A DNA stretch of 64,000 nucleotides from Flectonema sp. DT1601 (GCA_964019425.1 OZ025804.1:1116001-1180000); one strand, 5' to 3'; positions 25,351 to 50,335 are shown, numbered from the stretch's first letter. Notes: generated from the letters alone by a model not told the origin. Numbers and translations are program-made.

Positions 25351-27617
25351 AAAGTGAGTGATATCCAGATGGTACCGTTGGTGCTGGTGTGCTGTGCGAT
25401 GTCAAACCTGTTCAGTTTGCCATACATGTCTCTTTGACAACTAAATGGGCATCGCTTGTGCCCAGTGACATCACCCTTCCTGACCATCGCTTGTGGTGAG
25501 GTTCCGGACTTTGGACCGGCGCATCGCGTGTGCGGTGGGTTTAATCACTGAGGGGCTCATTCTCGTTCAGACTGTTCTGTTCTGTTCTGTTCTGTGGTGT
25601 CTTTCCATTACTCCTCCCATCTCTGCCAGGAGACAGCCTGACAACCCATATTGATATTGCTTGAGAGACAATGAGAGGTAATTCATTGGGGTAGAAATGG
25701 CTGTGTGGCCTGTACTCCTTAATATTCCCTTAATCACACCACAGGTACCCTCAGAGAGACCACAATTCATGTGTGTGGGAATTACGACGTCTGCGAGATG
25801 CCCAGGAAACCGAAGATACAGATCGATTTCCCGCACACATAAACAGCAGACCACCGATAGCATGAGCGTTATCCCTTCCTTGACCTCCAGGTCCTTCGCC
25901 TGAATCCCCTTCTTGCGAATTGTTGTAAGGAAGCTGCGGAACCGTAGAAAATTCTCCTCTATACTCTTGAGGGACTCACGTTCGCAAGGCAGGGAACACT
26001 TTTCGTCAGTACTGTGTGTTTTCATCAGTATAAACGAAACAACCGTCAGGGGTGGACTCCTCAGACAATGTGAATGCTGGTTCTGTAAGCCAGATATCGC
26101 GAACAACCCGACCATGATCATTCAGCAAATATGAGATGTCAATTGTGGCTGCCTCTGACATGTCCCGTGCAACCTCTGCCCAAAACTCGAGAAGTTCACT
26201 GAGCGCAGAGGTAATCGTGCAGGTTGACAGAGGTGGCGGTGTCGGATCAGTGATTAAGATTCCCAGCTGCTGGAAGTGGTGCAGCGCACGTCGTAGTGTG
26301 TCACAGAATGATTGAGCTTGAAACGATGTTGCCCCAGGTTATGAGTCAGCAACCTGCACTAAGCAATGTCTCAGAGTGCCGTACCGAGTGTCCGAACGTG
26401 ACAGAACGAATCAGCAGTACGGATACGTCACGCACGACGTCAGCGGCGGCATTCCTGACGGAACGGTCAGTGCTGTAGCATCACGGCTCCGATCGCTATG
26501 TCGATCGACCTTTAATTGTTTTCATCTTGAACGGGACATCACTCTCGCAATGATTTGATTTTCTACAATCATATCGGGTTATTTTCTCTCTTTTTCTTTT
26601 ACTTCTCCCTTCCCGTTTTCCTTTTCCTTTTCCCTTTATTACTCTCTATCTGGTCTGTTATGTCATAAATCTCATTTAATTTTATCAACCTTTTAACTTT
26701 TCACTGTTTCCCATCTACATTTTATTTTCAAATAGTTCCGGTCTGTCTTTGCGGGAAGAAACAGAAGCCTCATCTTCAATTCCATGGAAGTAGCTAGGCC
26801 TGGCCAGCTTACAGGACGAAGACTTCTAAAACCTAAGATGAACCAATTGAGTTGAAACAAACAAATAACAGAGACGCAACACATACCGGAACATCATCAG
26901 GCGCATCTCTTGTCTTAGCCCTAGCATGCTACGTTGGAACATTGTCACCAGCCCGGTGGACCAAGTTGTAATTATTGCCCCTGGTTTACTCATCACTCTT
27001 CCGTGTGACGGCGGTTATTCCCTAATAACCTGTTGTATGCTATACCTAAGTCTTTTACTTTTTTCTTCTTCACACGCTGTCGGTTTCCACCTTCGATGCA
27101 GTCAATCTTGTTCCGCCTTGGTTGTTTTTGGAAGAGCTAAGCTAAGTGGCAAGGTTTCACTAACAGATCGACTTTTTGTCAGCATCTCAGGCTTCTTTTT
27201 GCCGAGGACGTGCGGCTTTCTTTGAGGTCTCACAGTGACACTTTTAAAAGAAATTATCTATTCCGGTGGGTATAAAAAAAAGGGGGGGACTTGGATAAAT
27301 AAATCAAGGTTAACACGCAACAAATTAGACATGAATCATTATAACTGGATTCTGTCCACACAAAATCGCATGCTTTAAATAAACTACCAGAGAAAGAAAT
27401 GCTGTCAAGTCAAATTGACCCGGGGACCACGCACTACAGGTTGAGCATCCCATGCCCTGCAGGTCGTTACAGCTTGAAAACATTAATGCATTAATGGGTA
27501 ACCAATAAAAATTATCTGGGTGGGCAGTTACAGGGGTGAGAAAAAAAGAAAAGATAAATAACATGACAAGAATACGCTGGTTCGTAGCACACTACCAGTA
27601 AAGCCCATCCCATAAAC

Positions 27618-29776
27618 TCAGTTATGGTTGGTTTGACTCAAAAGCAGGAAAGGTTCACAAGTCAACTGATGGATTTGCAAACCTCGAATTCCCGCAAACC
27701 ATGTGCCTGCTTTCGTCGTTCGCATGCCACATCCACAACAAAAGTATATTCCAACGCAATTCAAACAAACATTCCAATCACATGTTAAGCTCTCACCATT
27801 ACAAGGGAGACGACATTCAAATATTTGTCCAAAGAAAAAATTTGAATCACATAAATCACAAAAAACCGGTTTGTTAATGAGAACCATTTCAAGATCGTGA
27901 CCTTGTGGGCAAGTAGTGGTTACACCATTTTGTTCTAACTCGGTATGTACTTTCATTGGTGAGAGCACCTTGCAGGATTTAGAATCTGTTTCATTGACGA
28001 TACTTTTCGATAAGAATCTACTCGTTACGTCCTTTTCGTTTAAAACAAATAAAGGTAATATGATTTCTAAACCTCCTTCACGCAATTTATCAAAGAGTAC
28101 CCCGGCTTCGTCAGGTAAGTTTTCACTCTCCACATCAGTAAAGCCAGAACAGGTAACCAAATTAAACAGGCCATTGAGAACGACCTCAGTATACTCTATA
28201 CACCAATCATTGATTACTGACCAATCGTATGGCCCTAGTATTGGGAAAAAGTGCTCAGATGGAACATTTGCATGGTGCCCGAGTATGATAAACCCCCTGA
28301 CAAGTAAAAAAGTAGACCGTGCGTCGGGAGCGACAAAGTAAGCGGAGTCTTTTTGCTCATAAGGGTCCATACTTAGGAAGAAAAAACTAACACCCAATAC
28401 ATTTGATAAGGCTTGTATGGCTGCATGGTCTGCCCACACACCATCAAAACCCATTCCAAGTGCATATTCGTCGTAATTACCGAGTACAAAGTTTTTATAT
28501 TTATCACTGTTATCTACTAACTCAGCACTGGTAAATTCACGTAGCGTCGCTGCATCAAAGAAGTAAAAAATTTGTTTCGATACTGCTTCAAACAATTACC
28601 AAAACGGTTCACGTCTTCAGGGTAAAGACCAACTTCTTCCATATACCATATCGTGTGGTCAATTGTAAAGTAATCCACTTTTCCTTCTTGAACAATTGGT
28701 TCTTCTGGAATCAACACTACGGCTTTAGGCGGGTAAACAATAAACTGTCTTTCTTTTGGAAAATGGTAAGAGTGAGGGTTGTTCAATTTACCAAAAACAA
28801 CATGAACTAAAGAAAGTAATCTCTTATATGTGGAATCGTAGGCTTTATAAAACTCATCGCAGAATTCACGAAAAGCAAATGCTACGTCTTGTTTCTTAAA
28901 ACCTCTTTTCCACATTCTATAAAGTATAAATTCAAATTCAACAAAAAGATCAGGTAAATTATTACAAATCATTGCAGCTCTAAACATAGCACCTTTAACC
29001 ACTCCTTTCGGTATAGACACGGAGTTGAATTTCCAGGTGAGATTTGGACTGTTAGCTTTTGGCTAAGGCCCTCCCTGAAGAGCAAGAACAAAAAAACTAC
29101 TCACACCTGAAGAAAACATACACAAAGAACACACTGTAAGCTGTGTGTGTATTTTGTGTTTGTCACAACAGGAGAGAAAAGAAAGAATGTCAAGGTTGGT
29201 CACCTTGCCTATCAACGCACAACATTGGTGGTCTCTACTAGACCCTGAGTGATCCCACTGGATCTCTCATCGTTCATAGTACCCTGTGTGAAGTTATAAA
29301 ATCAAAGGTAAACTATGAACTACAAATGACTTAGCCTGTTATTATAATGCCACAGGCAGGCCCTGCATTCAGCAACTATCCAGCAGTGCTTGGATGTCCT
29401 GATCTTCTTCTAAAAAAAAGAAAGAAAAACAAAACTGTAGCTGGGATCACTCAGGATCAACAGACTACCAATGCTACCTGTTGTACTTGCTCACTATGGG
29501 GGGTGATGCCAAACACCCAGAAGTACTAAACTGCTTTCCTTCTTGCTGCCCAGGAGTTTCTGACCAGAACTAATAGAAAATAAAAAGTAGATGGGAAACA
29601 ATAAAAAGTAAAATGGATATAACTGAAGTTAAACAAGACAAATGAAGTAACAGACCAGAACAGAAAGAGGATTGTGGCATAGTTGAATTACTATGAACAT
29701 ATTGCAAAGGGCGAAAAGACCAATCCTTTCGGCTTATAGATAACCTGATAAACTTTCTCTTTTCCTTTGTTTCAAT
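27618..29776 (-). mobile_element. 5'-truncated Penelope-like RT ORF (thumb region) + OTU protease + Zn fingers; frameshifted and interrupted by R1
   Basis: 29776-29676 joined to 29021-28517 reads ISRKDWSFRPLQYVHSNSTMP|VSIPKGVVKGAMFRAAMICNN...F..E...L..RGF (PLE thumb pattern). Then D..R.GNC/LFEAVSKQ...WADHAAIQALSNVL...EHF (OTU), CPQGH..CDLC..C..CDWNVCLNC and a C2HC finger. No GIY-YIG seen. Confidence 0.7.
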
Positions 29777-32119
29777 GAGTTGAATTTCCAGGTGAGATTT
29801 GGACTGTTAGCTTTTGGCTAAGGCCCTCCCTGAAGAGCAAGAACAAAAAAACTACTCACACCTGAAGAAAACATACACAAAGAACACACTGTAAGCTGTG
29901 TGTATATTTTGTGTTTGTCACAACAGGAGAGAAAAGAAAGAATGTCAAGGTTGGTCACCTTGCCTATCAACGCACAACATTGGTGGTCTCTACTAGACCC
30001 TGAGTGATCCCACTGGATCTCTCATCGTTCATAGTACCCTGTGTGAAGTTATAAAATCAAAGGTAAACTATGAACTACAAATGACTTAGCCTGTTATTAT
30101 AATGCCACAGGCAGGCCCTGCATTCAGCAACTATCCAGCAGTGCTTGGATGTCCTGATCTTCTTCTAAAAAAAAGAAAGAAAAACAAAACTGTAGCTGGG
30201 ATCACTCAGGATCAACAGACTACCTATGCTACCTGTTGTACTTGCTCACTATGGGGGGTGATGCCAAACACCCAGAAGTACTAAACTGCTTTCCTTCTTG
30301 CTGCCCAGGAGTTTCTGACCAGAACTAATAGAAAATAAAAAGTAGATGGGAAACAATAAAAAGTAAAATGGATATAACTGAAGTTAAACAAGACAAATGA
30401 AGTAACAGACCAGAACAGAAAGAGAATTGTAATAGAAGATTACAAATAAAAAAATGCAAGTATCAACACATGATCAAGATACACCAGCAGCTAACAAACA
30501 ACATAAAATTGAAGATCAGTTGCCAGAGTATTTCAACCATGGTAGAATACTCGCCCCTCTGGCAGGGATTATCCCAGACTTGTCCTTTAATTTAGTTGGA
30601 CACCATGGCTTACAACCCTTCCAGAGGGAAGCACCATTATGACTTCTATTTTTTTCTTCAAGAAAATCATAAGGTGGTAACAAAGAAAAATGCTAAGAGG
30701 AACCCCTTATTAACACCTAAGACATCTAAACTGCAGCCCAGCTTATGCCCAATGCACTAACAGGTCATTCCCTCACACTCAGATCAAAAAATCAAAGTTC
30801 AGAGTGCATCTTAGCATGAATGAGAGAATTTCCTCCCGCTTTTTTTGAACAAAAGGGATAGGAGAAGGGATAGAAAACGAACATAACAATAAGATTCTAA
30901 GTGAGAAACACTTAGCAGAAACACTTAGCAGCTTTTAAGGAGCTGAAAAGCAAAAAAAATATCTAAGTGAGAAACACTTAGTAGAAACAATTTGTAGCTA
31001 ATTAAGCTGAAAATAAAAAAATAAAAAAAATTTCTAAGTGAGAAATACTTAGCAACTTTTAGAACAAATATTCCAGTAAATAACCTGTAATGATTAAACC
31101 ATTACAAGTTTGATGCCAAAACTGACAAAGACTGAGTTGAATTTCCAGGTGAGATTTGGACTGTTAGCTTTTGGCTAAGGCCCTCCCTGAAGAGCAAGAA
31201 CAAAAGAACTACTCACACCTGAAGAAAACATACACAAAGAACACACTGTAAGCTGTGCGTGTATTTTGTGTTTGTCACAACAGGAGAGAAAAGAAAGAAT
31301 GTCAAGGTTGATCACCTTGCCTATCAACGCACAACATTGGTGGTCTCTACTAGACCCTGAGTGATCCCACTGGATCTCTCATCGTTCATAGTACCTATGT
31401 GAAGTTATAAAATCAAAGGTAAACTATGAACTACAAATGACTTAGCCTGTTATTATAATGCCACAGGCAGGCCCTGCATTCAGCAACTATCCAGCAGTGC
31501 TTGGATGTCCTGATCTTCTTCTAAAAAAAAGAAAGAAAAACAAAACTGTAGCTGGGATCACTCAGGATCAACAGACTACCAATGCTACCTGTTGTACTTG
31601 CTCACTATGGGGGGTGATGCCAAACACCCAGAAGTACTAAACTGCTTTCCTTCTTGCTGCCCAGGAGTTTCTGACCAGAACTAATAGAAAATAAAAAGTA
31701 GATGGGAAACAATAAAAAGTAAAATGGATATAACTGAAGTTAAACAAGACAAATGAAGTAACAGACCAGAACAGAAAGAGAATTGTAATAGAAGATTACA
31801 AATAAAAAAATGCAAGTATCAACACATGATCAAGATACACCAGCAGCTAACAAACAACATAAAATTGAAGATCAGTTGCCAGAGTATTTCAACCATGGTA
31901 GAATACTCGCCCCTCTGGCAGGGATTATCCCAGACTTGTCCTTTAATTTAGTTGGACACCATGGCTTACAACCCTTCCAGAGGGAAGCACCATTATGACT
32001 TCTATTTTTTTCTTCAAGAAAATCATAAGGTGGTAACAAAGAAAAATGCTAAGAGGAACCCCTTATTAACACCTAAGACATCTAAACTGCAGCCCAGCTT
32101 ATGCCCAATGCACTAACAG

Positions 32120-32566
32120 AAATACTACCGAAATGCTTGTCACAATGGCTCTTGCCGTGCCTTCCGGGAAAGAAGTTAACACTTTTGACATTCGGGTGTG
32201 CCAGAAGCTCGCTTATGACTGTGGCATTCCGAAAGTGTGTGCCACTGTCACACCAGATGTGGATTGGTTTCATGTTCTTCCTGATTAAAGGCATCTCCCA
32301 CAGCTTGCGAAGACATAAATAAGTCACAGCCGCATCTTGATTTGTGTGTGGCAAGAGAAGGTCAATGTACTGTTGTCGAGTTTCATCGTGCAACTTGAAA
32401 TGCATAACTATACCCAGACAACTGTACTTCCCCTGCTGGTAGTAGTGTGATGATGACTCTTGTGGTACCTGTGGCAGGGTACCCTTCTCCTTATAGTCGA
32501 GTGTTATAATTAAGCTATCCCCAGGGTCAGCAGTGTTTTCTGAATAGACTGCATTCTGTCTCTTAA
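32120..32566 (-). mobile_element. Sola-like DDE transposase fragment (catalytic core)
   Basis: LIITLDYKEK ... IHIWCDSGTHFRN ... VNFFPGRHGKSHCDKHFG, matching the D..D..HGK..CD pattern of Sola2/3-type transposases. Confidence 0.7.
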
Positions 32567-34789
32567 ACTGAGTTGAATTTCCAGGTGAGATTTGGACTGT
32601 TAGCTTTTGGCTAAGGCCCTCCCTGAAGAGCAAGAACAAAAAAACTACTCACACCTGAAGAAAACATACACAAAGAACACACTGTAAGCTGTGTGTGTAT
32701 TTTGTGTTTGTCACAACAGGAGAGAAAAGAAAGAATGTCAAGGTTGGTCACCTTGCCTATCAACGCACAACATTGGTGGTCTCTACTAGACCCTGAGTGA
32801 TCCCACTGGATCTCTCATCGTTCATAGTACCCTATGTGAAGTTATAAAATCAAAGGTAAACTATGAACTACAAATGACTTAGCCTGTTATTATAATGCCA
32901 CAGGCAGGCCCTGCATTCAGCAACTATCCAGCAGTGCTTGGATGTCCTGATCTTCTTCTAAAGAAAAGAAAGAAAAACAAAACTGTAGCTGGGATCACTC
33001 AGGATCAACAGACTACCAATGCTACCTGTTGTACTTGCTCACTATGGGGGGTGATGCCAAACACCCAGAAGTACTTAACTACTTTCCTTCTTGCTGCCCA
33101 GGAGTTTCTGACCAGAACTAATAGAAAATAAAAAGTAGATGGGAAACAATAAAAAGTAAAATGGATATAACTGAAGTTAAACAAGACAAATGAAGTAACA
33201 GACCAGAACAGAAAGAGAATTGTAATAGAAGATTACAAATAAAAAAATGCAAGTATCAACACATGATCAGGATACACCAGCAGCTAACAAACAACATAAA
33301 ATTGAAGATCAGTTGCCAGAGTATTTCAACCATGGTAGAATACTCGCCCCTCTGGCAGGGATTATCCCAGACTTGTCCTTTAATTTAGTTGGACACCATG
33401 GCTTACAACCCTTCCAGAGGGAAGCACCATTATGACTTCTATTTTTTTTCTTCAAGAAAATCATAAGGTGGGAACAAAGAAAAATGCTAAGAGGAACCCC
33501 CTATTAACACCTAAGACATCTAAACTGCAGCCCAGCCTATGCCCAATGCACTAACAGGTCATTCCCTCACACTCAGATCAAAAAATCAAAGTTCAGAGTG
33601 CATCTTAGCGTGAATGAGAGAATTTCCTCCCGCTTATTTTGAACAAAAGGGATAGGAGAAGGGATAGAAAACGAACATAAAAATAAAATTCTAAGTGAGA
33701 AACACTTAGCAGAAACACTTAGCAGCTTTTAAGGAGCTGAAAAGCAAAAAAAAAATCTAAGTGAGAAACACTTAGTAGAAACAATTTGTAGCTAATTAAG
33801 CTGAAAATAAAAAAATAAAAAATTTCTAAGTGAAAAATACTTAGCAACTTTTAGAACAAATATTTCAGTAAATAACCTGTAATGATTAAACCATTACAAG
33901 TTTGATGCCAAAACTGACAAGGACTGAGTTGAATTTCCAGGTGAGATTTGGACTGTTAGCTTTTGGCTAAGGCCCTCCCTGAAGAGCAAGAACAAAAAAA
34001 CTACTCACACCTGAAGAAAACATACACAAAGAACACACTGTAAGCTGTGTGTGTATTTTGTGTTTGTCACAACAGGAGAGAAAAGAAAGAATGTCAAGGT
34101 TGGTCACCTTGCCTATCAACGCACAACATTGGTGGTCTCTACTAGACCCTGAGTGATCCCACTGGATCTCTCATCGTTCATAGTACCCTATGTGAAGTTA
34201 TAAAATCAAAGGTAAACTATGAACTACAAATGACTTAGCCTGTTATTATAATGCCACAGGCAGGCCCTGCATTCAGCAACTATCCAGCAGTGCTTGGATG
34301 TCCTGATCTTCTTCTAAAGAAAAGAAAGAAAAACAAAACTGTAGCTGGGATCACTCAGGATCAACAGACTACCAATGCTACCTGTTGTACTTGCTCACTA
34401 TGGGGGGTGATGCCAAACACCCAGAAGTACTTAACTACTTTCCTTCTTGCTGCCCAGGAGTTTCTGACCAGAACTAATAGAAAATAAAAAGTAGATGGGA
34501 AACAATAAAAAGTAAAATGGATATAACTGAAGTTAAACAAGACAAATGAAGTAACAGACCAGAACAGAAAGAGAATTGTAATAGAAGATTACAAATAAAA
34601 AAATGCAAGTATCAACACATGATCAGGATACACCAGCAGCTAACAAACAACATAAAATTGAAGATCAGTTGCCAGAGTATTTCAACCATGGTAGAATACT
34701 CGCCCCTCTGGCAGGGATTATCCCAGACTTGTCCTTTAATTTAGTTGGACACCATGGACACTTCTACATGATAATGAACCTCAACAAGT

Positions 34790-36058
34790 TCGATCGACTA
34801 TGTCGATTACTTTCTATTTTCCGTCCTGGTCAAGACGCTAAACTGATTGTTTTTTTTTTTTCAAAATAAAAAAAATATTAAAAAAAAAAAATAAAAAAAA
34901 AAGAATAAACAATGTTATCATTGTTTTTTTTTATCGTTCGACTTTGTCGACTAATTTCTATTTTCCGTTTTTTTTTTTTCTTTGAAAAATAAATAAAAAG
35001 AATTTAAAATAAAAAAAAAAGAATAAACAATGTTATCATTGTTTTTTTTTATCGATCGACTATGTCGATTACTTTCTATTTTCCGTCCTGGTCAAGACGC
35101 TAAACTGATTGTTTTTTTTTCAAAATTAATAAAAAAGAATATAAAAAAAATAAAAAAAAAAAGAATAAACAATGTTATCATTGTTTTTTTTTATCGTTCG
35201 ACTTTGTTGACTAATTTCTATTTTCCATTTTTTTTCTTTTTAAAAATAAATAAAAAGAATTAAAAAAAAAAAAAAAAAGAATAAACAATGTTATCATTGT
35301 TTTTTTTATCGATCGACTATGTCGATTACTTTCTATTTTCCGTCCTGGTCAAGACGCTAAACTGATTGTTTTTTTTTCAAAATTAATAAAAAAGAATATA
35401 AAAAAAATAAAAAAAAAAAGAATAAACAATGTTATCATTGTTTTTTTTTATCGTTCGACTTTGTTGACTAATTTCTATTTTCCATTTTTTTTCTTTTTAA
35501 AAATTAATAAAAAAGAAAAAAAAAAAAAAAAAAAAAAAGGAATAAACAATGTTATCATTGTTTTTTTTTTATCGATCGACTATGTCGATTACTTACTATT
35601 TTCCGTCCTGATCGAGACGCTAAACTGATTGTTTCCTTTTTTTAAATAATAAATAAGAAAAAAAAAAAAAAAAAAAAGAGCATCTCCCTGCTATCCCTCA
35701 TATCCCCACAATAATATTATACCTTTTCATTTTCTCTTTCCTTTTCTGGTCTTTTTTTTTTTCTTTTTTTTTCCTTTTTCATACAACGTTTTTTATTTAT
35801 ATATTTTTTTTTTTTTTTTTTTTTCATGTTTGATTATTTCCTCTTCATTTTTTTTTTTTTTTTTTCTCTGCCTCTCTCTTAATTCTGTTCGTTTCTTTGA
35901 AACGAAAATTCATTTGAATATTATTCCTTGGTCAGCAACCATCATTGTCGCCCTTTGGGCCTGTTAAAAGAAAATAAAAAATAAAAAGAAAGTTTACATC
36001 GGGAATAGGGCAGGAGCCAAAAGCTCCCAGTCCGTTACTTCCCACTTTATCGAAATTC
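34790..36058 (+). mobile_element. Family ST copy 1: ~110/130-bp satellite array plus ~380-bp unique terminal segment
   Basis: Alternating units with hairpins aaacaatg-ttat-cattgttt, atcgac-tat-gtcgat and cgtc..gacg; fixed right end ...ctttatcgaaattc. Confidence 0.85.
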
Positions 36059-36371
36059 GTTGATAAATGACATAGCACTGGTCGTGCACTGGCAGGTAAG
36101 CCACCCTTACTGGACACCATTAGCTGCAACGTCAGCGCACTGGCACGCGCAGCATTCCAAACAGTTAATGAGTAACCACTCTGTCGCTCAACACTGCTAA
36201 GTAGTTTTGACAGTTTCTTTCTAATTGTCTGTCCACACAGGCAGTACGAGCAGACGTCAGTTCGCCGTGCAAGGTGACGATATTCCTTCCCACGCATACG
36301 ACGGTATGTAGATTCTGATATCAGATCACGAATACTGCTGACTTCATAGATAGATTTAAATGTTCCAAGGA
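36059..36371 (-). mobile_element. Sola-like transposase fragment (RTDVCSYC zinc-binding region); duplicated at 44305-44617
   Basis: ISESTYRRMRGKEYRHLARRTDVCSYC resembles the TD.C..C motif upstream of the Sola DDE; joins neighbouring fragments in frame. Confidence 0.6.
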
Positions 36372-38568
36372 TGAGTTAAGTTACCAGGTGAGATTTGGAC
36401 TGTTAGCTTTTGGCTAAGGCCCTCCCTGAAGAGCAAGAACAAAAAAACTACTCACACCTGAAGAAAACATACACAAAGAACACACTGTAAGCTGTGTGTG
36501 TATTTTGTGTTTGTCACAACAGGAGAGAAAAGAAAGAATGTCAAGGTTGGTCACCTTGCCTATCAACGCACAACATTGGTGGTCTCTACTAGACCCTGAG
36601 TGATCCCACTGGATCTCTCATCGTTCATAGTACCCTGTGTGAAGTTATAAAATCAAAGGTAAACTATGAACTACAAATGACTTAGCCTGTTATTATAATG
36701 CCACAGGCAGGCCCTGCATTCAGCAACTATCCAGCAGTGCTTGGATGTCCTGATCTTCTTCTAAAAAAAAGAAAGAAAAACAAAACTGTAGCTGGGATCA
36801 CTCAGGATCAACAGACTACCAATGCTACCTGTTGTACTTGCTCACTATGGGGGGTGATGCCAAACACCCAGAAGTACTTAACTGCTTTCCTTCTTGCTGC
36901 CCAGGAGTTTCTGACCAGAACTAATAGAAAATAAAAAGTAGATGGGAAACAATAAAAAGTAAAATGGATATAACTGAAGTTAAACAAGACAAATGAAGTA
37001 ACAGACCAGAACAGAAAGAGGATTGTAATAGAAGATTACAAATAAAAAAATGCAAGTATCAACACATAATCAAGATACACCAGCAGCTAACAAACAACAT
37101 AAAATTGAAGATCAGTTGCCAGAGTATTTCAACCATGGTAGAATACTCGCCCCTCTGGCAGGGATTATCCCAGACTTGTCCTTTAATCTAGTTGGACACC
37201 ATGGCTTACAACCCTTCCAGAGGGAAGCACCATTATGACTTCTATTTTTTTCTTCAAGAAAATCATAAGGTGGGAACAAAGAAAAATGCTAAGAGGAACC
37301 CCCTATTAACACCTAAGACATCTAAACTGCAGCCCAGCCTATGCCCAATGCACTAACAGGTCATTCCCTCACACTCAGATCAAAAAATCAAAGTTCAGAG
37401 TGCATCTTAGCATGAATGAGAGAATTTCTCATCGCTTTTTTTGAACAAAAGGGATAGGAGAAGGGATAGAAAACGAACATTAAAATAAAATTCTAAGTGA
37501 GAAACACTTAGCAGAAATACTTAGCAGCTTTTAAGGAGCTGAAAAGCAAAAAAAAAAATCTAAGAGAAACACTTAGTAGAAACACTTTGTAGCTAATTGA
37601 GCTGAAAATAAAAAAATAAAAAATTTCTAAGTGAGAAATACTTAGCAACTTTTAGAACAAATAATTAAGTAAATAACCTGTTGAAATGGTAGTTAAATGA
37701 AAACCATTACAGGTTTGATGCCAAAACTGACAAAGAATGAGTTAAGTTACCAGGTGAGATTTGGACTGTTAGCTTTTGGCTAAGGCCCTCCCTGAAGAGC
37801 AAGAACAAAAAAACTACTCACACCTGAAGAAAACATACACAAAGAACACACTGTAAGCTGTGTGTGTATTTTGTGTTTGTCACAACAGGAGAGAAAAGAA
37901 AGAATGTCAAGGTTGGTCACCTTGCCTATCAACGCACAACATTGGTGGTCTCTACTAGACCCTGAGTGATCCCACTGGATCTCTCATCGTTCATAGTACC
38001 CTGTGTGAAGTTATAAAATCAAAGGTAAACTATGAACTACAAATGACTTAGCCTGTTATTATAATGCCACAGGCAGGCCCTGCATTCAGCAACTATCCAG
38101 CAGTGCTTGGATGTCCTGATCTTCTTCTAAAAAAAAGAAAGAAAAACAAAACTGTAGCTGGGATCACTCAGGATCAACAGACTACCAATGCTACCTGTTG
38201 TACTTGCTCACTATGGGGGGTGATGCCAAACACCCAGAAGTACTAAACTGCTTTCCTTCTTGCTGCCCAGGAGTTTCTGACCAGAACTAATAGAAAATAA
38301 AAAGTAGATGGGAAACAATAAAAAGTAAAATGGATATAACTGAAGTTAAACAAGACAAATGAAGTAACAGACCAGAACAGAAAGAGAATTGTAATAGAAG
38401 ATTACAAATAAAAAAATGCAAGTATCAACACATGATCAGGATACACCAGCAGCTAACAAACAACATAAAATTGAAGATCAGTTGCCAGAGTATTTCAACC
38501 ATGGTAGAATACTCGCCCCTCTGGCAGGGATTATCCCAGACTTGTCCTTTAATCTAGTTGGACACCAT

Positions 38569-38843
38569 TCTGCAACGTAACAGTCTCGCGACGTTGAGCT
38601 GAAAGCCTTTTTACTACTATTGAAGTCTCAGACGAGGCTGCATTGTGCTCGCTCTCTACCTGACTGCATAGCTCTGGGCAGATCTTCCTTGGCCTCCCTA
38701 TATCTACGGGCACATCGCTTTTAGCATCCCAGGCCTTTCTGCCTATTTTTAGCCCAGCTTCTTCTAGAAAGCTTAACTTCCATCCTTTTTCTTCTAGAGA
38801 CTGCAGTACTTCTCGTCTGTCACCCGTTTCCATTTTCACAATA
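38569..38843 (-). mobile_element. Sola-like transposase N-terminal fragment; duplicated at 46815-47089
   Basis: Open frame with GRPRK; continues in frame into 36371-36059 once R6/R7 are removed. Confidence 0.55.
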
Positions 38844-39264
38844 GAGTTAAGTTACCAGGTGAGATTTGGACTGTTAGCTTTTGGCTAAGGCCCTCCCTGA
38901 AGAGCAAGAACAAAAAAAACTACTCACACCTGAAGAAAACATACACAAAGAACACACTGTAAGCTGTGTGTGTATTTTGTGTTTGTCACAACAGGAGAGA
39001 AAGGAGTTGAATTTCCAGGTGAGATTTGGACTGTTAGCTTTTGGCTAAGGCCCTCCCTGAAGAGCAAGAACAAAAAAACTACTCACACCTGAAGAAAACA
39101 TACACAAAGAACACACTGTAAGCTGTGTGTGTATTTTGTGTTTGTCACAACAGGAGAGAAAAGAAAGAATGTCAAGGTTGGTCTTGCCTATCAACGCACA
39201 ACATTGGTGGTCTCTACTAGACCCTGAGTGATCCCACTGGATCTCTCATCGTTCATAGTACCCT

Positions 39265-42200
39265 TGTTTTTTTTCAAAATTAATAAAAAAGAATATAAAA
39301 AAAAAAAAAAAAAAAGAATAAACAATGTTATCATTGTTTTTTTTTTATCGTTCGACTTTGTCGACTAATTTCTATTTTCCGTTTCTTTTCTTTAAAGAAT
39401 AAATAAAAAGAATTTAAAATAAAAAAAAGAATAAACAATGTTATCATTGTTTTTTTATCGATCGACTATGTCGATCACTTTCTATTTTCCGTCCTGGTCA
39501 AGACGCTAAACTGATTGTTTTTTTTCAAAATTAATAAAAAAGAATATAAAAAAAAAAAAAAAAAAAGAATAAACAATGTTATCATTGTTTTTTTTTTATC
39601 GTTCGACTTTGTCGACTAATTTCTATTTTCCGTTTCTTTTCTTTAAAGAATAAATAAAAAGAATTTAAAATAAAAAAAAAGAATAAACAATGTTATCATT
39701 GTTTTTTTATCGATCGACTATGTCGATCACTTTCTATTTTCCGTCCTGGTCAAGACGCTAAACTGATTGTTTTTTTTTCAAAATTAATAAAAAAGAATAT
39801 AAAAAAAAAAAAAAAAAAAAGAATAAACAATGTTATCATTGTTTTTTTTTTATCGTTCGACTTTGTCGACTAATTTCTATTTTCCGGTTCTTTTCTTTAA
39901 AGAATAAATAAAAAGAATTTAAAATAAAAAAAAAGAATAAACAATGTTATCATTGTTTTTTTATCGATCGACTATGTCGATCACTTTCTATTTTCCGTCC
40001 TGGTCAAGACGCTAAACTGATTGTTTTTTTTTTTCAAAATTAATAAAAAAGAATATAAAAAAATACAAAAAAAAGAATAAACAATGTTATCATTGTTTTT
40101 TTTATCGTTCGACTTTGTCGACTAATTTCTATTTTCCGTTTTTTTTTCTTTAAAAAATAAATAAAAAGAATTTAAAATAAAAAAAAAGAATAAACAATGT
40201 TATCATTGTTTTTTTATCGATCGACTATGTCGATCACTTTCTATTTTCCGTCCTGGTCAAGACGCTAAACTGATTGTTTTTTTTTTTTCAAAATTAATAA
40301 AAAAGAATATTAAAAAAAATAAAAAAAAAAAGAATAAACAATGTTATCATTGTTTTTTTTTTATCGTTCGACTTTGTCGACTAATTTCTATTTTCCGTTT
40401 TTTTCTTTAAAAAATAAATAAAAAGAATTTAATAAAAAAAAAGAATAAACAATGTTATCATTGTTTTTTTTTATCGATCGACTATGTCGATTACTTTCTA
40501 TTTTCCGTCCTGGTCAAGACGCTAAACTGATTGTTTTTTTTTTCAAAATAAAAAAAAAATATTAAAAAAAAAAAATAAAAAAAAAGAATAAACAATGTTA
40601 TCATTGTTTTTTTTTATCGTTCGACTTTGTTGTTTTTTCTTTAAAAAATAAATAAAAAGAATTTAAAAAAAAAAAAAAAAAAAAAAAGAATAAACAATGT
40701 TATCATTGTTTTTTTTATCGATCGACTATGTCGATTACTTTCTATTTTCCGTCCTGGTCAAGACGCTAAACTGATTGTTTTTTTTTCAAAATTAATAAAA
40801 AAGAATATAAAAAAATACAAAAAAAAGAATAAACAATGTTATCATTGTTTTTTTTATCGATCGACTATGTCGATTACTTTCTATTTTCCGTCCTGGTCAA
40901 GACGCTAAACTGATTGTTTTTTTTTCAAAATAAAAAAAAAATATTAAAAAAAAAAAATAAAAAAAAAGAATAAACAATGTTATCATTGTTTTTTTTTATC
41001 GTTCGACTTTGTTGACTAATTTCTATTTTCCGTTTTTTTTCTTTAAACAATTAATAAAAAGAATTTAAAAAAAAAAAAAAAAAAAAAGAATAAACAATGT
41101 TATCATTGTTTTTTTTATCGATCGACTATGTCGATTACTTTCTATTTTCCGTCCTGGTCAAGACGCTAAACTGATTGTTTTTTTTTCAAAATTAATAAAA
41201 AAGAATATAAAAAAATACAAAAAAAAGAATAAACAATGTTATCATTGTTTTTTTTTATCGTTCGACTTTGTCGACTAATTTCTATTTTCCGTTTTTTTTT
41301 CTCTTTAAAAAATAAATAAAAAGAATTTAAAATAAAAAAAAAAAAGAATAAACAATGTTATCATTGTTTTTTTTATCGATCGACTATGTCGATTACTTTC
41401 TATTTTCCGTCCTGGTCAAGACGCTAAACTGATTGTTTTTTTTTCAAAATTAATAAAAAAGAATATAAAAAAAAAAAAAAAAAAAAGAATAAACAATGTT
41501 ATCATTGTTTTTTTTTATCGTTCGACTTTGTTGACTAATTTCTATTTTCCATTTTTTTTCTTTTTAAAAAATAAATAAAAAGAATTAAAATAAAAAAAAA
41601 AAAAAAGAATAAACAATGTTATCATTGTTTTTTTTATCGATCGACTATGTCGATTACTTTCTATTTTCCGTCCTGGTCAGAACGCTAAACTGATTGTTTT
41701 TTCTTTAAAAATAAATAAAAAGAATAAAAAAAAAAAAAAAGGAATAAACAATGTTATCATTGTTTTTTTTTTATCGATCGACTATGTCGATTACTTACTA
41801 TTTTCCGTCCTGGTCAAGACGCTAAACTGATTGTTTTTTCTTTAAAATAATTAAAAAGATTAAAAAAAAAAAAAAAAAAAAAAAATGAATAAACAATGTT
41901 ATCATTGTTTTTTTTCTATCGATCAACTATGTCGATTAATTTCTATTTTCCGTCCTGATCGAGACGCTAAACTGATTGTTTCCTTTTTTTAAATAATAAA
42001 TAAGAAAAAAAAAAAAAAAAAAAAAAAAAGAGCATCTCCCTGCTATCCCTCATATCCCCACAATAATATTATACCTTTTCATTTTCTCTTTCCTTTTCTG
42101 GTCTTTTTTTTTTCTTTTTTTTCCTTTTTCATACAACGTTTTTTATTTATATATATATTTTTTTTTTTTTTTTTTCATGTTTGATTATTTCCTCCTTATT

Positions 42201-42433
42201 TTTTTTTTTCTTTTCTTTTCCTTCTTTTTTTTTTTTTTTTCCTCTGCCTCTCTCTTAATTCTGTTCGTTTCTTTGAAACGAAAATTCATTTGAATATTAT
42301 TCCTTGGTCAGCAACCATCATTGTCGCCCTTTGGGCCTGTTAAAAAAAAATAAAAATAAAAAGAAAGTTTACATCGGGAATAGGGCAGGAGCCAAAAGCT
42401 CCCAGTCCGTTACTTCCCACTTTATCGAAATTC
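39265..42433 (+). mobile_element. Family ST copy 2, inserted into an R copy
   Basis: R breaks after catagtaccct (39264) and resumes tgtgaagttataaa (~42437); ~2.7 kb of satellite then the terminal segment. Confidence 0.85.
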
Positions 42434-43035
42434 AGCTGTGAAGTTATAAAATCAAAGGTAAACTATGAACTACAAATGACTTAGCCTGTTATTATAATGC
42501 CACAGGCAGGCCCTGCATTCAGCAACTATCCAGCAGTGCTTGGATGTCCTGATCTTCTTCTAAAAAAAAGAAAGAAAAACAAAACTGTAGCTGGGATCAC
42601 TCAGGATCAACAGACTACCAATGCTACCTGTTGTACTTGCTCACTATGGGGGGTGATGCCAAACACCCAGAAGTACTAAACTGCTTTCCTTCTTGCTGCC
42701 CAGGAGTTTCTGACCAGAACTAATAGAAAATAAAAAGTAGATGGGAAACAATAAAAAGTAAAATGGATATAACTGAAGTTAAACAAGACAAATGAAGTAA
42801 CAGACCAGAACAGAAAGAGAATTGTAATAGAAGATTACAAATAAAAAAATGCAAGTATCAACACATGATCAGGATACACCAGCAGCTAACAAACAACATA
42901 AAATTGAAGATCAGTTGCCAGAGTATTTCAACCATGGTAGAATACTCGCCCCTCTGGCAGGGATTATCCCAGACTTGTCCTTTAATTTAGTTGGACACCA
43001 TGGACACTTCTACATGATAATGAACCTCAACAAGT

Positions 43036-48537: not shown

Positions 48538-50297
48538 AGAATAAACAATGTTATCATTGTTTTTTTTTATTGTTCGACTTTGTTGACTAATTTCTATTTT
48601 CCGTTTTTTTTCTTTAAAAAATAAATAAAAAGAATATAAAATAAAAAAAAAGAATAAACAATGTTATCATTGTTTTTTTATCGATCGACTATGTCGATCA
48701 CTTTCTATTTTCCGTCCTGGTCAAGACGCTAAACTGATTGTTTTTTTTTTTCAAAATTAATAAAAAAGAATATAAAAAAAAAAAAAAAAAAAGAATAAAC
48801 AATGTTATCATTGTTTTTTTTTATCGTTCGACTTTGTCGACTAATTTCTATTTTCCGTTTCTTTTCTTTAAAGAATAAATAAAAAGAATTTAAAATAAAA
48901 AAAAAAAGAATAAACAATGTTATCATTGTTTTTTTATCGATCGACTATGTCGATCACTTTCTATTTTCCGTCCTGGTCAAGACGCTAAACTGATTGTTTT
49001 TTTTTCAAAATTAATAAAAAAGAATATAAAAAAAAAAAAAAAAAAAAAAAGAATAAACAATGTTATCATTGTTTTTTTTATTGTTCGACTTTGTTGACTA
49101 ATTTCTATTTTCCGTTTTTTTTCTTTAAAAAATAAATAAAAAGGATTTAAAATAAAAAAAAAGAATAAACAATGTTATCATTGTTTTTTTGTCGATCGAC
49201 TATGTCGATCACTTTCTATTTTCCGTCCTGGTCAAGACGCTAAACTGATTGTTTTTTTTCAAAATTAATAAAAAAGAATATAAAAAAAAAAAAAAAAAAA
49301 AGAATAAACAATGTTATCATTGTTTTTTTTTTTATCGTTCGACTTTGTCGACTAATTTCTATTTTCCGTTTCTTTTCTTTAAAGAATAAATAAAAAGAAT
49401 TTAAAATAAAAAAAAAGAATAAACAATGTTATCATTGTTTTTTTTTATCGTTCGACTTTGTCGACTAATTTCTATTTTCCGTTTCTTTTCTTTAAAGAAT
49501 AAATAAAAAGAATTTAAAATAAAAAAAAAAAGAATAAACAATGTTATCATTGTTTTTTTATCGATCGACTACGTCGATCACTTTCTATTTTCCGTCCTGG
49601 TCAAGACGCTAAACTGATTGTTTTTTTTTCAAAATTAATAAAAAAGAATATAAAAAAAAAAAAAAAAAAAAAAAGAATAAACAATGTTATCATTGTTTTT
49701 TTTTATCGTTCGACTTTGTTGACTAATTTCTATTTTCCATTTTTTTTCTTTTTAAAAATAAATAAAAAGAATTAAAAAAAAAAAAAAAAAGAATAAACAA
49801 TGTTATCATTGTTTTTTTTATCGATCGACTATGTCGATTACTTTCTATTTTCCGTCCTGGTCAAGACGCTAAACTGATTGTTTTTTTTTCAAAATTAATA
49901 AAAAAGAATATAAAAAAAAAAAAAAAAAAAAGAATAAACAATGTTATCATTGTTTTTTTTATCGTTCGACTTTGTTGACTAATTTCTATTTTCCATTTTT
50001 TTTCTTTTTAAAAATAAATAAAAAGAATTAAATTAAAAAAAAAAAAAGAATAAACAATGTTATCATTGTTTTTTTTATCGATCGACTATGTCGATTACTT
50101 TCTATTTTCCGTCCTGGTCAGGACGCTAAACTGATTGTTTTTTCTTTAAAAATAAATAAAAAGAATAAAAAAAAAAAAAAAGGAATAAACAATGTTATCA
50201 TTGTTTTTTTTTATCGATCGACTATGTCGATTACTTACTATTTTCCGTCCTGATCAAGACGCTAAACTGATTGTTTTTTCTTTAAAATAATTAAAAA

Positions 50298-50335
<38 letters not shown>

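What the first reader, a model, noticed from the sequence alone, without database searches (positions are those of the whole stretch)
29022..36058. Two unrelated non-coding elements share a covarying terminal stem-loop at their fixed end
Seen: the R end on the minus strand (29077-29022) reads caggga-GGGC-c-ttAGC-CAAAA-GCTaa-CA-GTCC-aaatctcacctg-GAAATTC-aactc. The ST end on the plus strand (36001-36058) reads gggaata-GGGC-a-ggAGC-CAAAA-GCTcc-CA-GTCC-gttacttcccactttatc-GAAATTC. They share the loop, the 1x2 internal loop, a G.U-containing GGGC/GTCC stem, two compensatory pair swaps (UU/AA vs GG/CC), different but pairing outer stems, and GAAATTC near the end (R variant A). Established: SINEs are often mobilised through a 3' stem-loop recognised by a partner RT. 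Inference: this is the RT-recognition signal of one retro-mobility system, defining the RNA sense as minus for R and plus for ST.
Basis: partly seen in the sequence, partly recalled or inferred. Interest (0 to 1): 0.92.

Follow-up and report, generated by a model that had tools for sequence, protein, structure and literature searches.

The report
Shared hairpin ends two mobile repeats
Two unrelated non-coding repeats in a protist genome whose closest named relative is a diplonemid all stop at a fixed point 24-25 bases after the same small hairpin, and have inserted without target duplications into a transposase-like gene and into each other; the hairpin is likely the signal by which one reverse transcriptase, not seen in this window, would copy both.

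Summary
The 26-nt stem-loop GGGC-N-NNAGC-CAAAA-GCTNN-CA-GTCC occurs 18 times between 29.0 and 51.8 kb (0 expected). It has two forms that differ by two compensatory pairs. Every copy lies 24 nt (R, 14 copies, minus strand) or 25 nt (ST, 4 copies, plus strand) before a repeat's fixed end.

New here: the "spacer" pieces between R and ST copies are collinear pieces of one gene, 98-100% identical in protein to an uninterrupted 673-aa paralogue on another contig. So R and ST are insertions. There are six R events and one ST event in about 1.3 kb of gene, and two later ST insertions into R. Every insertion has a complete hairpin-bearing end. The other ends vary, there is no target-site duplication (-2 to +2 nt), and fillers are 0-3 nt. 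Four of the six R events are a 5'-truncated copy followed head-to-tail by one full copy, the "partial tandem" typical of Penelope-like retroelements. Canonical Helitron and terminal-inverted-repeat (TIR) hallmarks are absent.

No genome was held, so no RT-bearing partner could be sought, and no RNA data exist. Novelty: a new member of a known kind, in a lineage without characterised transposons.

The parts
29046..29071 (-). Stem-loop core, R form (GGGC-C-TTAGC-CAAAA-GCTAA-CA-GTCC). The same core lies at 29801, 31158, 32594, 33950, 36397, 37763, 38868, 39028, 44643, 46009, 47114, 47274 and 51762 (start coordinates, all minus strand).
36008..36033 (+). Stem-loop core, ST form (GGGC-A-GGAGC-CAAAA-GCTCC-CA-GTCC). 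The same core lies at 42383, 44254 and 51610 (plus strand).
29022..29675 (-). R positions 703-1356: a single 5'-truncated insertion (event I6). Its fixed end at 29022 lies about 40 nt upstream of the next minus-strand ORF.
29777..32119 (-). Event I5. R 369-1356 (31134-32119) is followed head-to-tail by a full R unit 1-1356 (29777-31133). It sits after codon 450 of the interrupted gene.
32570..34757 (-). Event I4. R 525-1356 (33926-34757) is followed by a full R unit (32570-33925). It sits within codon 300. No target bases are lost or duplicated, and the 5' filler is TGT.
36373..38568 (-). Event I2. R 527-1356 (37739-38568) is followed by a full R unit (36373-37738, variant B end GGTAACTTAACTC). 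It sits between codons 184 and 185. A duplicate lies at 44619-46814.
38844..39267 (-). Event I1, 3' part. R 1199-1356 (38844-39002) is followed by one base C and then R 1089-1356 (39004-39267), which continues as R 525-1091 at 42437-43003 on the far side of ST copy j. A duplicate lies at 47090-48537 (R 1199-1356, C, R 66-1356).
51661..52017 (-). Event I1, 5' part. R about 1078-1356 (51738-52017) is followed by R 1-78 (51661-51737). It is joined to codon 91 of the gene at 52018.
34790..36058 (+). ST copy i (event I3): a 254-257-bp AT-rich satellite plus a 381-nt T-rich tail ending GAAATTC. It is inserted antisense between codons 289 and 290, with 2 nt of target lost. A duplicate lies at 43036-44304.
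39268..42433 (+). ST copy j, inserted into an R copy at about R position 1090. One base (G) is lost, 3 nt of filler (AGC, 42434-42436) sit at the fixed end, and there is no TSD.
48538..51660 (+). ST copy k, inserted into an R copy at about R position 70. AA is present on both sides, so the TSD is at most 2 nt, and there is no filler. It carries a later TIR element at 50600-51376.
32120..32569 (-). Piece of the interrupted transposase-like gene, P0121 residues 300-450. The other pieces are: 34758-34789 (residues 290-300; duplicate 43004-43035); 36059-36372 (185-289, with a 1-nt frameshift; duplicate 44305-44618); 38569-38843 (92-184; duplicate 46815-47089); 52018-52128 (about 57-91).
33874..33902 (-). 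13-bp hairpin at R positions 24-52, near the start of the R unit. It is kept with altered architecture in variants at 37659-37738 and 51661-51737 (z -2.9 to -3.7).

Best explanation
R and ST are two otherwise unrelated families of non-coding insertion elements that share a 26-nt stem-loop placed 24-25 nt before a precisely fixed terminus, and they are likely non-autonomous retroelements that a reverse transcriptase encoded elsewhere in the genome would recognise through that stem-loop and copy into broken or nicked DNA (target-primed reverse transcription).

Shown:
- The fixed end, the variable other end and the insertions themselves.
- No target-site duplication, and 0-3 nt of filler at junctions.
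- R inserts as more than one unit (a truncated copy plus a full copy, head to tail).
- R and ST nest in each other, and R-derived reading frames occur on other contigs.

Inferred:
- The intermediate is RNA, of minus sense for R and plus sense for ST.
- Copying would start at a position measured from the hairpin.
- The template would be a tandem read-through transcript or a circle. This would explain why a full R unit is only ever seen behind another R end.
- The enzyme would be of the Penelope-like or R2-like (restriction-like endonuclease) kind rather than an AP-endonuclease LINE.
For: 1. All 18 motif sites lie 24 nt (R) or 25 nt (ST) from the element end. Downstream sequence differs in about 8 R contexts and 3 ST contexts in the window. 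A contig of another run leaves the window exactly after 36058 (table 7). A gene model on another contig (P0130) joins R sequence exactly to the ST end.
2. Filled against uninterrupted sites. The pieces between R and ST are collinear with P0121 residues 61-450 at 98-100% identity. P0122 and P0123 (67% and 58% identical) are also continuous across the same points. Junctions show -2, 0 (or -3), -2 and 0 nt of target change. ST in R shows -1 nt with filler AGC, and +2 nt or none.
3. The other end is variable. R starts at about 1078, 527, 525, 369, 703 and 1199. ST starts at three different satellite positions.
4. Four of 6 R events are a 5'-truncated copy followed by one full copy. Passages of PMC8557442 and PMC3846280 describe this as typical of Penelope-like elements. 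They also describe non-autonomous derivatives that share only the 3' end, an insertion without a TSD, and a palindrome at the 5' end of the terminal repeat. R has a 13-bp hairpin at positions 24-52.
5. P0129 on another contig reads antisense R joined to sense R, which is a head-to-head inverted pair.
6. The two stem-loop forms differ by two compensatory pairs. Both keep a G.U pair that would be an A.C mismatch on the other strand.
7. No TIRs are present, and the Helitron termini and target are not met. A real TIR element with an 8-bp duplication sits inside ST for contrast.
8. R-derived reading frames occur in gene models on 6 contig lengths other than the window's own.
Against: - No RT gene carrying the motif was seen. 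None could be sought, because no genome is held and the window has no RT domain.
- There is no transcript evidence of any kind.
- The covariation rests on two families, and 54 of 500 shuffles match it.
- The R hairpin is not more stable than shuffled sequence.
- There is no TSD, whereas Penelope-like and AP-endonuclease LINE insertions usually make one.
- No hammerhead or other known ribozyme was found.
- There is no A-tail or terminal short repeat.
- Seven or more insertions in about 1.3 kb of one gene copy is far denser than random insertion would give and is unexplained.
- The uninterrupted state is known only from proteins on other contigs, whose DNA I could not read. I also could not confirm that those contigs belong to the same genome.
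Confidence: 0.58

Rival explanations
1. The hairpin is the terminator or origin signal of a rolling-circle DNA transposon system (Helitron-like or another HUH nuclease). R and ST would be non-autonomous DNA elements whose single strand is cut a set distance from the hairpin.
For: - A subterminal hairpin sits near one fixed end, there is no TSD, and the elements form head-to-tail arrays and nest next to each other.
- Helitrons have a palindrome upstream of the 3' end that acts as a terminator, lack TSDs and insert next to one another (passages of PMC4778049).
- The D. papillatum genome paper reports ORFs resembling Helitron proteins (passage of PMC10161547).
- A G.T pair is also tolerated in folded single-stranded DNA.
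Against: - The ends are AACTC and GAAATTC, not CTRR.
- No insertion starts with TC.
- No insertion lies between A and T.
- Junctions carry fillers and small deletions rather than being precise.
- The end opposite the hairpin differs in every insertion, whereas the Helitron 5' end is the part strictly required.
- A truncated-plus-full tandem is not what a bypassed terminator produces.
- The hairpin lies 24-25 nt from the end. By my recall the usual distance is about 10-12 nt.
Confidence: 0.12
2. R (and ST in other genomes) is a roughly 1.36-kb circular or concatemeric replicon, RNA or DNA. A polymerase starts on it at a site measured from the hairpin and runs round more than once. The linear by-products, with one fixed end, are joined into chromosome breaks. 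This would be a hairpin-guided rolling-circle mobile element belonging neither to Helitrons nor to Penelope-like elements.
For: - Insertions are 0.12 to 1.73 units long with one fixed end.
- No R unit ever shows a free 5' end next to non-R DNA (0 of 4 full units plus the 78-nt start).
- In two other runs R assembles as unit-length contigs (1366 and 1387 nt) that map as circular permutations. A 1382-nt contig begins and ends in the ST end (table 8).
- There is no TSD, and junctions have small deletions and fillers, as in end-joining.
Against: - Collapsed tandem arrays give the same cyclic contigs, so cannot tell circles from arrays.
- R has no ORF and no known origin motif.
- The loop is not a CRESS-type nonanucleotide (my recall of that motif).
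- No known ribozyme was found.
Confidence: 0.12
3. R and ST are not mobilised through the hairpin. The cluster would have grown by local recombination and break repair in a repeat-rich strand-switch region. The hairpin would be a shared functional RNA or DNA element, such as a 3'-end processing or termination signal, that happens to lie near a fragile site.
For: - A 5078-nt repeat unit is present in about two tandem copies. It is explained by unequal crossover between R copies.
- All copies in the window lie within 23 kb, between a minus-strand and a plus-strand gene block.
Against: - Recombination does not explain one exact end in about 11 different contexts.
- It does not explain clean interruptions of a gene whose paralogues are continuous.
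- It does not explain R and ST junctions in gene models on other contigs.
Confidence: 0.08

Closest known systems
Penelope-like elements and their non-autonomous derivatives (for example MRC1 and Chlamys families of Chlamydomonas)
   Same: - Frequent 5' truncation.
- Partial tandems in which a truncated copy precedes a full copy, and multicopy head-to-tail insertions.
- Non-autonomous families that resemble the autonomous one only at the 3' end.
- Tandem repeats inside elements.
- A palindrome at the start of the terminal repeat.
- Documented insertions without a TSD and with a microhomology 5' junction.
Sources: passages of PMC8557442 and PMC3846280.
   Different: - No RT/GIY-YIG partner was seen.
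- No hammerhead motif was found.
- No 30-40-bp tail and no inverted copy in the window.
- No TSD in any of the 6 junction pairs measured.
- The passages I read of PMC8557442 do not mention Euglenozoa or Discoba (0 occurrences of either word).
Stringent-type LINE/SINE pairs sharing a 3' stem-loop (eel UnaL2 and its partner SINE)
   Same: Two elements with unrelated bodies share a conserved 3' tail. Its hairpin with an internal loop is needed for mobilisation (abstract of PMC1636434 in the listing). The hairpin here also has an internal loop (1 x 2).
   Different: - No LINE partner is known.
- There is no Pol III head, no terminal short repeats or A-tail, and no TSD.
- R is 1.36 kb and inserts as more than one unit.
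R2-type (restriction-like endonuclease) non-LTR elements and their internally deleted parasites
   Same: By my recall, from no call: an exact 3' end without an A-tail; a few untemplated bases at the 3' junction; small target deletions instead of a TSD; 5' truncation; jumps of the RT from the 5' end of one template to the 3' end of another. The D. papillatum genome paper reports gene models annotated as R2 and SLACS RTs.
   Different: Those elements are site-specific. The R and ST targets here share no motif.
Helitrons
   Same: A hairpin near one end, no TSD, non-autonomous families that share only their ends, and clustering (PMC4778049).
   Different: 5'-TC, CTRR-3', the A|T target, precise junctions and a fixed 5' end were all tested here and not met.

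Membership tests
Penelope-like-element-dependent non-autonomous retroelement | Partial tandem: a 5'-truncated copy directly before a full copy (pseudo-LTR) | tested here: met
   Four of 6 R insertion events (I1b, I2, I4, I5) have this form. The other two (I1a of 159 nt, I6 of 654 nt) are single truncated copies.
Penelope-like-element-dependent non-autonomous retroelement | Frequent 5' truncation with an intact 3' end | tested here: met
   Fourteen of 16 R segments keep the complete end. The two without it (42437-43003, 51661-51737) are parts of R copies split by an ST insertion. Starts lie at about 1078, 527, 525, 369, 703 and 1199.
Penelope-like-element-dependent non-autonomous retroelement | Hammerhead ribozyme in the terminal repeat (canonical clades) | tested here: not met
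   Rfam at E <= 1 over 27000-64000 gives only LSU rRNA pieces and one chance sRNA hit. The Naiad clade also lacks a canonical one.
Penelope-like-element-dependent non-autonomous retroelement | Autonomous partner encoding RT plus GIY-YIG endonuclease, with the same 3' end | not testable with these tools
   No genome is held. No RT or GIY-YIG domain was found in the window ORFs scanned.
Penelope-like-element-dependent non-autonomous retroelement | Short target-site duplication | tested here: not met
   None of 6 measured junction pairs has a duplication longer than 2 nt. Penelope-like insertions without a TSD are on record.
Penelope-like-element-dependent non-autonomous retroelement | Inverted 5'-truncated copy next to the 5' end | tested here: inconclusive
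   None of the 16 R segments in the window is on the plus strand. One gene model on another contig (P0129) reads antisense R joined to sense R.
Stringent LINE-dependent SINE | 3' tail with a stem-loop shared with the partner LINE | not testable with these tools
   It is shared between R and ST. No LINE was available to compare.
Stringent LINE-dependent SINE | Pol III-type head (tRNA, 5S or 7SL) | tested here: not met
   No tRNA was found and no Rfam match lies in R or ST. The ST tail has long T-runs.
Stringent LINE-dependent SINE | Terminal A-run or short tandem repeats, and a TSD | tested here: not met
   The ends are ...AACTC and ...GAAATTC. There is no TSD.
Helitron | 5'-TC and CTRR-3' termini | tested here: not met
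   The 3' ends are AACTC and GAAATTC. The insertion starts read TTTTAT, ATGGTG, CCATGG, CTGTTA and ACAATC. The definition comes from a passage of PMC4778049.
Helitron | Precise insertion between A and T, no TSD | tested here: not met
   There is no TSD, but none of the 6 junction pairs is a precise A|T insertion, and fillers and 1-2-nt deletions are present.
Helitron | Short palindrome just upstream of the 3' end | tested here: met
   The hairpin ends 24-25 nt before the terminus.
Helitron | Rep/helicase-encoding autonomous element with the same ends | not testable with these tools
   No genome is held. None was found in the window ORFs scanned.
TIR (cut-and-paste) DNA transposon | Terminal inverted repeats and a TSD of fixed length | tested here: not met
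   The starts and ends of R and ST are not inverted copies of each other, and there is no TSD. For contrast, the element at 50600-51376 has perfect 27-bp TIRs and ATATATAT on both sides.

The most novel reading that the evidence does not exclude
R is the visible trace of a new kind of hairpin-guided rolling-circle mobile element. A roughly 1.36-kb circular or endless template has no 5' end of its own. A polymerase starts on it at a site measured 24-25 nt from a small structured hairpin and runs round up to 1.7 times. The product is joined into chromosome breaks without target duplication. ST is an unrelated body that has captured the same start signal. The system would belong neither to Helitrons nor to LINEs nor to Penelope-like elements, and would be the first mobile-element mechanism defined in diplonemids.
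Probability: 0.12. Interest if true: 0.8.

Novelty: new member of a known kind. Interest (0 to 1): 0.5.

Why it matters
Diplonemids are among the most abundant marine eukaryotes. Their genomes are large and repeat-rich, and the one published genome paper states that rigorous identification of transposable elements is still to be done (PMC10161547).

This locus gives the first worked example, for a diplonemid-like genome, of how two abundant non-coding repeats are built and inserted. It provides:
- exact termini;
- near-nucleotide insertion junctions;
- a compact candidate recognition signal that can be turned into a genome-wide search model.

If the partner enzyme turns out to be Penelope-like or R2-like, that would extend trans-mobilisation through a 3' hairpin to Euglenozoa. 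If no RT partner exists, the fixed-end, more-than-unit-length insertions without target duplication would point to an undescribed mechanism.

In practice, R and ST split a gene into pieces and create 5-kb duplications. Such structures will mislead assembly and gene prediction in these genomes.

Tried and rejected
- **Genome-wide scan of the motif:** no genome is held.
- **Metagenome scan with the exact pattern:** 0 loci.
- **Metagenome scan with the third inner pair freed:** 6 loci, three of them the same sequence. All have 50-62% G+C and inner arms that do not pair as in R and ST. About as many are expected by chance (my rough estimate). Rejected.
- **Expression:** no RNA holder listed.
- **First read-laying run:** A different stretch was then laid.
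- **Cover:** the gene pieces at 36126-36351 and 38499-38724 had no cover in any of the four runs, while R had cover. This is not used as evidence.
- **Earlier findings of the scan:** nothing by place, sequence or words.
- **Known RNA families, including ribozymes and spliced-leader RNAs:** none in R or ST.
- **Spliced-leader RNA idea:** in R variant B a GT follows 38 nt after the start of the core. Rejected because variant A and ST lack it and there is no Rfam support. My memory of the diplonemid leader sequence is not a test. The supplement search for 'SL RNA' gave 0 occurrences.
- **Captured-mRNA idea:** I considered that the pieces between R copies are mRNA fragments picked up by template switching. 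Rejected because they are collinear, contiguous pieces of one gene.
- **Intron or 'introner' idea:** only 1 of 5 R junction pairs (I4) could offer GT...AG.
- **LTR/TRIM idea** (R 525-1356 as a terminal repeat starting TG and ending CA): rejected because there is no TSD and other insertions start elsewhere.
- **Likeness of the loop (TAGCCAAAAGC) to the 28S stretch TAGCCAAATGC at 52148:** 10 of 11 bases agree, which by my rough estimate has a chance of about 0.2. Rejected.
- **Naming P0121:** Pfam and PDB sequence searches gave nothing. The Atlas gives only a lead to DUF7869 / DDE-like clusters (0.85-0.95).
- **Outer stems as covariation evidence:** not significant for ST.
- **Orientation:** in the window all 16 R segments are minus-strand and all 4 ST copies are plus-strand, but P0130 shows ST and R in the same orientation on another contig. 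No rule is claimed.

Full report
**1.

The two quoted ends are in the sequence as written. The core pattern occurs 18 times, all exact, against none in 100 shuffles. There are 14 copies of the R form on the minus strand and 4 of the ST form on the plus strand, all between 29.0 and 51.8 kb. A covariance model built from the ends and run without filters over the whole window finds the same 18 sites (E <= 9e-17). Otherwise it finds only six hits at 9-11 bits. Extracting every site with its flanks shows two things:
- R copies stay alike up to ...AACTC, 24 nt after the core.
- ST copies stay alike up to ...GAAATTC, 25 nt after the core.

Beyond these points the sequences differ. Seven R ends read GGAAATTCAACTC and seven read GGTAACTTAACTC, so the shared GAAATTC is not a constant feature.

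**2. How strong is the structure evidence?**

Both ends fold into the proposed hairpin as RNA and as DNA. The hairpin is a 4-bp stem with a G.U pair, a 1 x 2 internal loop, a 5-bp stem and a CAAAA loop. Only the ST end is more stable than shuffled sequence (z -3.5, 0 of 200). The R ends are not (z -0.8 and -0.1). The two forms differ at 5 of 26 positions. Four of these differences make two compensatory pairs (UA,UA against GC,GC), and all 27 cells pair. With only two families, 54 of 500 shuffles do as well. A simple count gives p of about 0.012 that five differences would fall on two complete pairs. The outer stems add little (p 0.049 for R, 0.39 for ST). Outside the core, R and ST share only T-rich similarity. 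The hairpin is therefore a real shared block with suggestive, not proven, covariation.

**3. Where we are.**

The window is eukaryotic. Long ORFs on the minus strand fill 1.5-29 kb, and ORFs on the plus strand fill 54-64 kb. An Na+/neurotransmitter symporter ORF is 53% identical to a Diplonema papillatum protein and 86% identical to an unnamed EukProt transcript. The host therefore looks like a diplonemid. The R/ST cluster fills the gap between two diverging gene blocks. The D. papillatum genome paper describes gene clusters separated by long repetitive regions, thousands of scattered 28S pieces, and tandem 2.5-kb units with an unexpressed ORF. It says that transposable elements there are not yet rigorously defined (passages). 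This window shows all three features.

**4. Anatomy of R and ST.**

A self-comparison and a map against one R unit give 16 R segments, all on the minus strand. Fourteen have the complete end. R is a 1356-1366-nt unit without a convincing ORF. It has a 13-bp hairpin at positions 24-52. Full units occur only directly behind another R end. No R start is ever seen next to non-R DNA.

ST consists of a 254-257-bp AT-rich satellite followed by a 381-nt T-rich tail that carries the hairpin.

**5. The key result: R and ST are insertions.**

The short "other" pieces between R and ST copies looked at first like captured fragments. A protein search with one of them found a 673-aa protein on another contig, P0121, at 99% identity, with relatives at 67% and 58%. 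A tblastn of P0121 on the window and reading of the junctions show that the pieces are consecutive parts of one gene, all on the minus strand:

| P0121 residues | Window coordinates | Duplicate |
|---|---|---|
| about 57-91 | 52128-52018 | none |
| 92-184 | 38843-38569 | 47089-46815 |
| 185-289 (1-nt frameshift) | 36372-36059 | 44618-44305 |
| 290-300 | 34789-34758 | 43035-43004 |
| 300-450 | 32569-32120 | none |

P0121, P0122 and P0123 are continuous across all these points. The gene copy in the window has therefore been interrupted by these events:

| Event | Position in gene | What is inserted |
|---|---|---|
| I1 | codons 91/92 | 159 nt of R end; one base upstream, a second insertion of R about 1078-1356 plus a full unit |
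| I2 | codons 184/185 | R 527-1356 plus a full unit |
| I3 | codons 289/290 | ST, antisense |
| I4 | within codon 300 | R 525-1356 plus a full unit |
| I5 | after codon 450 | R 369-1356 plus a full unit |
| I6 | next to the following ORF | R 703-1356 |

Judged against the P0121 codons, target changes are:
- -2 nt at I1;
- 0 nt at I2, or -3 nt if a 3-nt microhomology is given to R;
- -2 nt at I3;
- 0 nt at I4, with a TGT filler at the 5' junction.

Two further ST copies interrupt R itself. One sits at about R position 1090, with one base lost and AGC filler at the fixed end. The other sits at about R position 70, with AA on both sides. The 5078-nt repeat (34191-39267 against 42437-47514, 99.8% identical) is explained by unequal crossover between same-sense R copies. 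This reading makes the first ST-in-R event younger than the duplication.

**6. Beyond the window.**

An R-derived reading frame finds gene models on contigs of six other lengths, all from one source. Their sequences show:
- R joined exactly to the ST fixed end, in the same orientation (P0130);
- R joined to the interior of an ST tail (P0126);
- an inverted head-to-head R pair (P0129);
- R truncated against unrelated sequence (P0128).

P0124 is a relative of the interrupted gene that runs into an ST tail. Contigs of four other public runs were laid on 35900-39260. In one, a contig leaves the window exactly after 36058. In two, R forms unit-length contigs (1366 and 1387 nt) that map as circular permutations. 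A 1382-nt contig begins and ends within the ST end. Collapsed tandem arrays and true circles would look the same here.

**7. Mechanism.**

The features to explain are:
- one exact end, set 24-25 nt from a conserved hairpin;
- a variable other end;
- no target duplication, small deletions, and 0-3 nt of filler;
- microhomology at the variable end;
- insertions longer than one unit (0.12 to 1.73 units);
- an inverted pair;
- no TIRs.

This combination is what reverse transcription primed at a DNA break produces. The truncated-copy-plus-full-copy form in 4 of 6 R events is described as the hallmark of Penelope-like elements. It is also described for their non-autonomous derivatives, which resemble the autonomous families only at their 3' ends (PMC8557442 passages; PMC3846280 passages). 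The latter paper also reports an insertion without a TSD that has a microhomology 5' junction, and palindromes at the start of the terminal repeat.

From recall only, R2-type enzymes also give exact 3' ends, untemplated bases, small target deletions and template jumps. I therefore commit to trans-mobilised, non-autonomous retroelements recognised through the 3' hairpin (0.58). A Penelope-like enzyme is the first guess and an R2-like enzyme the second. The RNA intermediate, the enzyme and the role of the hairpin are inferred.

**8. Rivals.**

Canonical Helitron features (passage of PMC4778049) were tested. The subterminal palindrome and the lack of a TSD are met. 5'-TC, CTRR-3', the A|T target, precise junctions and a fixed 5' end are not met. 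A rolling-circle DNA system of another kind, or a circular template copied more than once, cannot be excluded (0.12 each). Pure local recombination does not explain one exact end in about 11 contexts or the clean gene interruptions (0.08).

**9. What remains odd.**

Seven or more insertions lie in about 1.3 kb of one gene copy that is still 98-100% identical to its paralogue. One insertion lies one base from another. Two ST copies lie inside R in the window, and a third R-to-ST junction lies on another contig. Insertion is clearly not random, but no target motif is visible. Two independent R insertions, of different subfamilies, start within 4 nt of each other (R 525-527). This hints at a preferred template start.

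**10. Limits.**

- No genome is held.
- No RNA holder is listed.
- One of the two read-laying runs was lost to a filter.
- The uninterrupted gene is known only as protein, and I could not confirm that its contig belongs to the same genome.
- The supplement that describes D. papillatum repeats and spliced-leader RNA gave no hits for my terms. It may hold relevant detail I did not see.

**Papers.**
- PMC10161547, PMC8557442, PMC3846280 and PMC4778049: passages found by term search.
- PMC1636434: abstract in a search listing.
- The R2 biochemistry, the eel LINE/SINE experiment of 2002 and the usual Helitron hairpin distance are recalled, not read here.

Noticed in passing
window 50600-51376: A 777-nt element with perfect 27-bp terminal inverted repeats, flanked by ATATATAT on both sides. 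It sits inside the T-run of the third ST tail. It looks like a MITE-type cut-and-paste transposon with an 8-bp TSD, younger than that ST copy.
   Followed up: partly
window 52126-52523 (+): A piece of large-subunit rRNA (Rfam model positions 2255-2620). It covers the stretch CTCTTAAGGTAGCCAAATGCC and abuts, in antisense, the 5'-truncated start (about residue 57) of the interrupted gene. The D. papillatum paper reports about 3600 scattered 28S pieces.
   Followed up: partly
window about 52940-53015: A tRNA-like stretch with a GGTTCGAACCC T-arm motif. Neither ARAGORN nor Rfam calls it.
   Followed up: no
window 53123-64000 (+): Tandem units of about 2.7 kb (94-99% alike), each with a 415-452-aa ORF that gives a weak, sub-threshold HNH_2 match (E about 1e-3). 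This recalls the 2.5-kb tandem units with an untranscribed ORF described for D. papillatum.
   Followed up: partly
window 32120-32569 and pieces listed under parts; proteins P0121-P0124: The interrupted gene belongs to a multicopy family (673 aa when whole, with a C-terminal CX2CX4HX4C knuckle). It has no Pfam or PDB match. The protein atlas places it near DUF7869 / DDE-transposase-like clusters, so it may itself be the transposase of a DNA transposon.
   Followed up: partly
window 11194-13278: A tandem repeat of about 291 bp (85-95% alike) inside minus-strand ORFs. Two ORFs (11862-12440 and 12444-12947) are separated by a single in-frame stop.
   Followed up: no
window 33856-33925, 37659-37738, 51661-51737 (-): The start of the R unit carries a stable 13-bp hairpin (z -2.9 to -3.7). 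Its loop and lower stem differ between R variants while the pairing is kept.
   Followed up: partly
window 1-29000 against 54000-64000: All long ORFs on the left are on the minus strand and all on the right are on the plus strand. The R/ST cluster therefore fills a divergent strand-switch region, as expected for polycistronic gene clusters in Euglenozoa.
   Followed up: no
window 26649-26743 (+): A weak (79% over 99 nt) inverted match to R positions 719-816, outside the cluster. It may be an old R fragment or a T-rich chance match.
   Followed up: no
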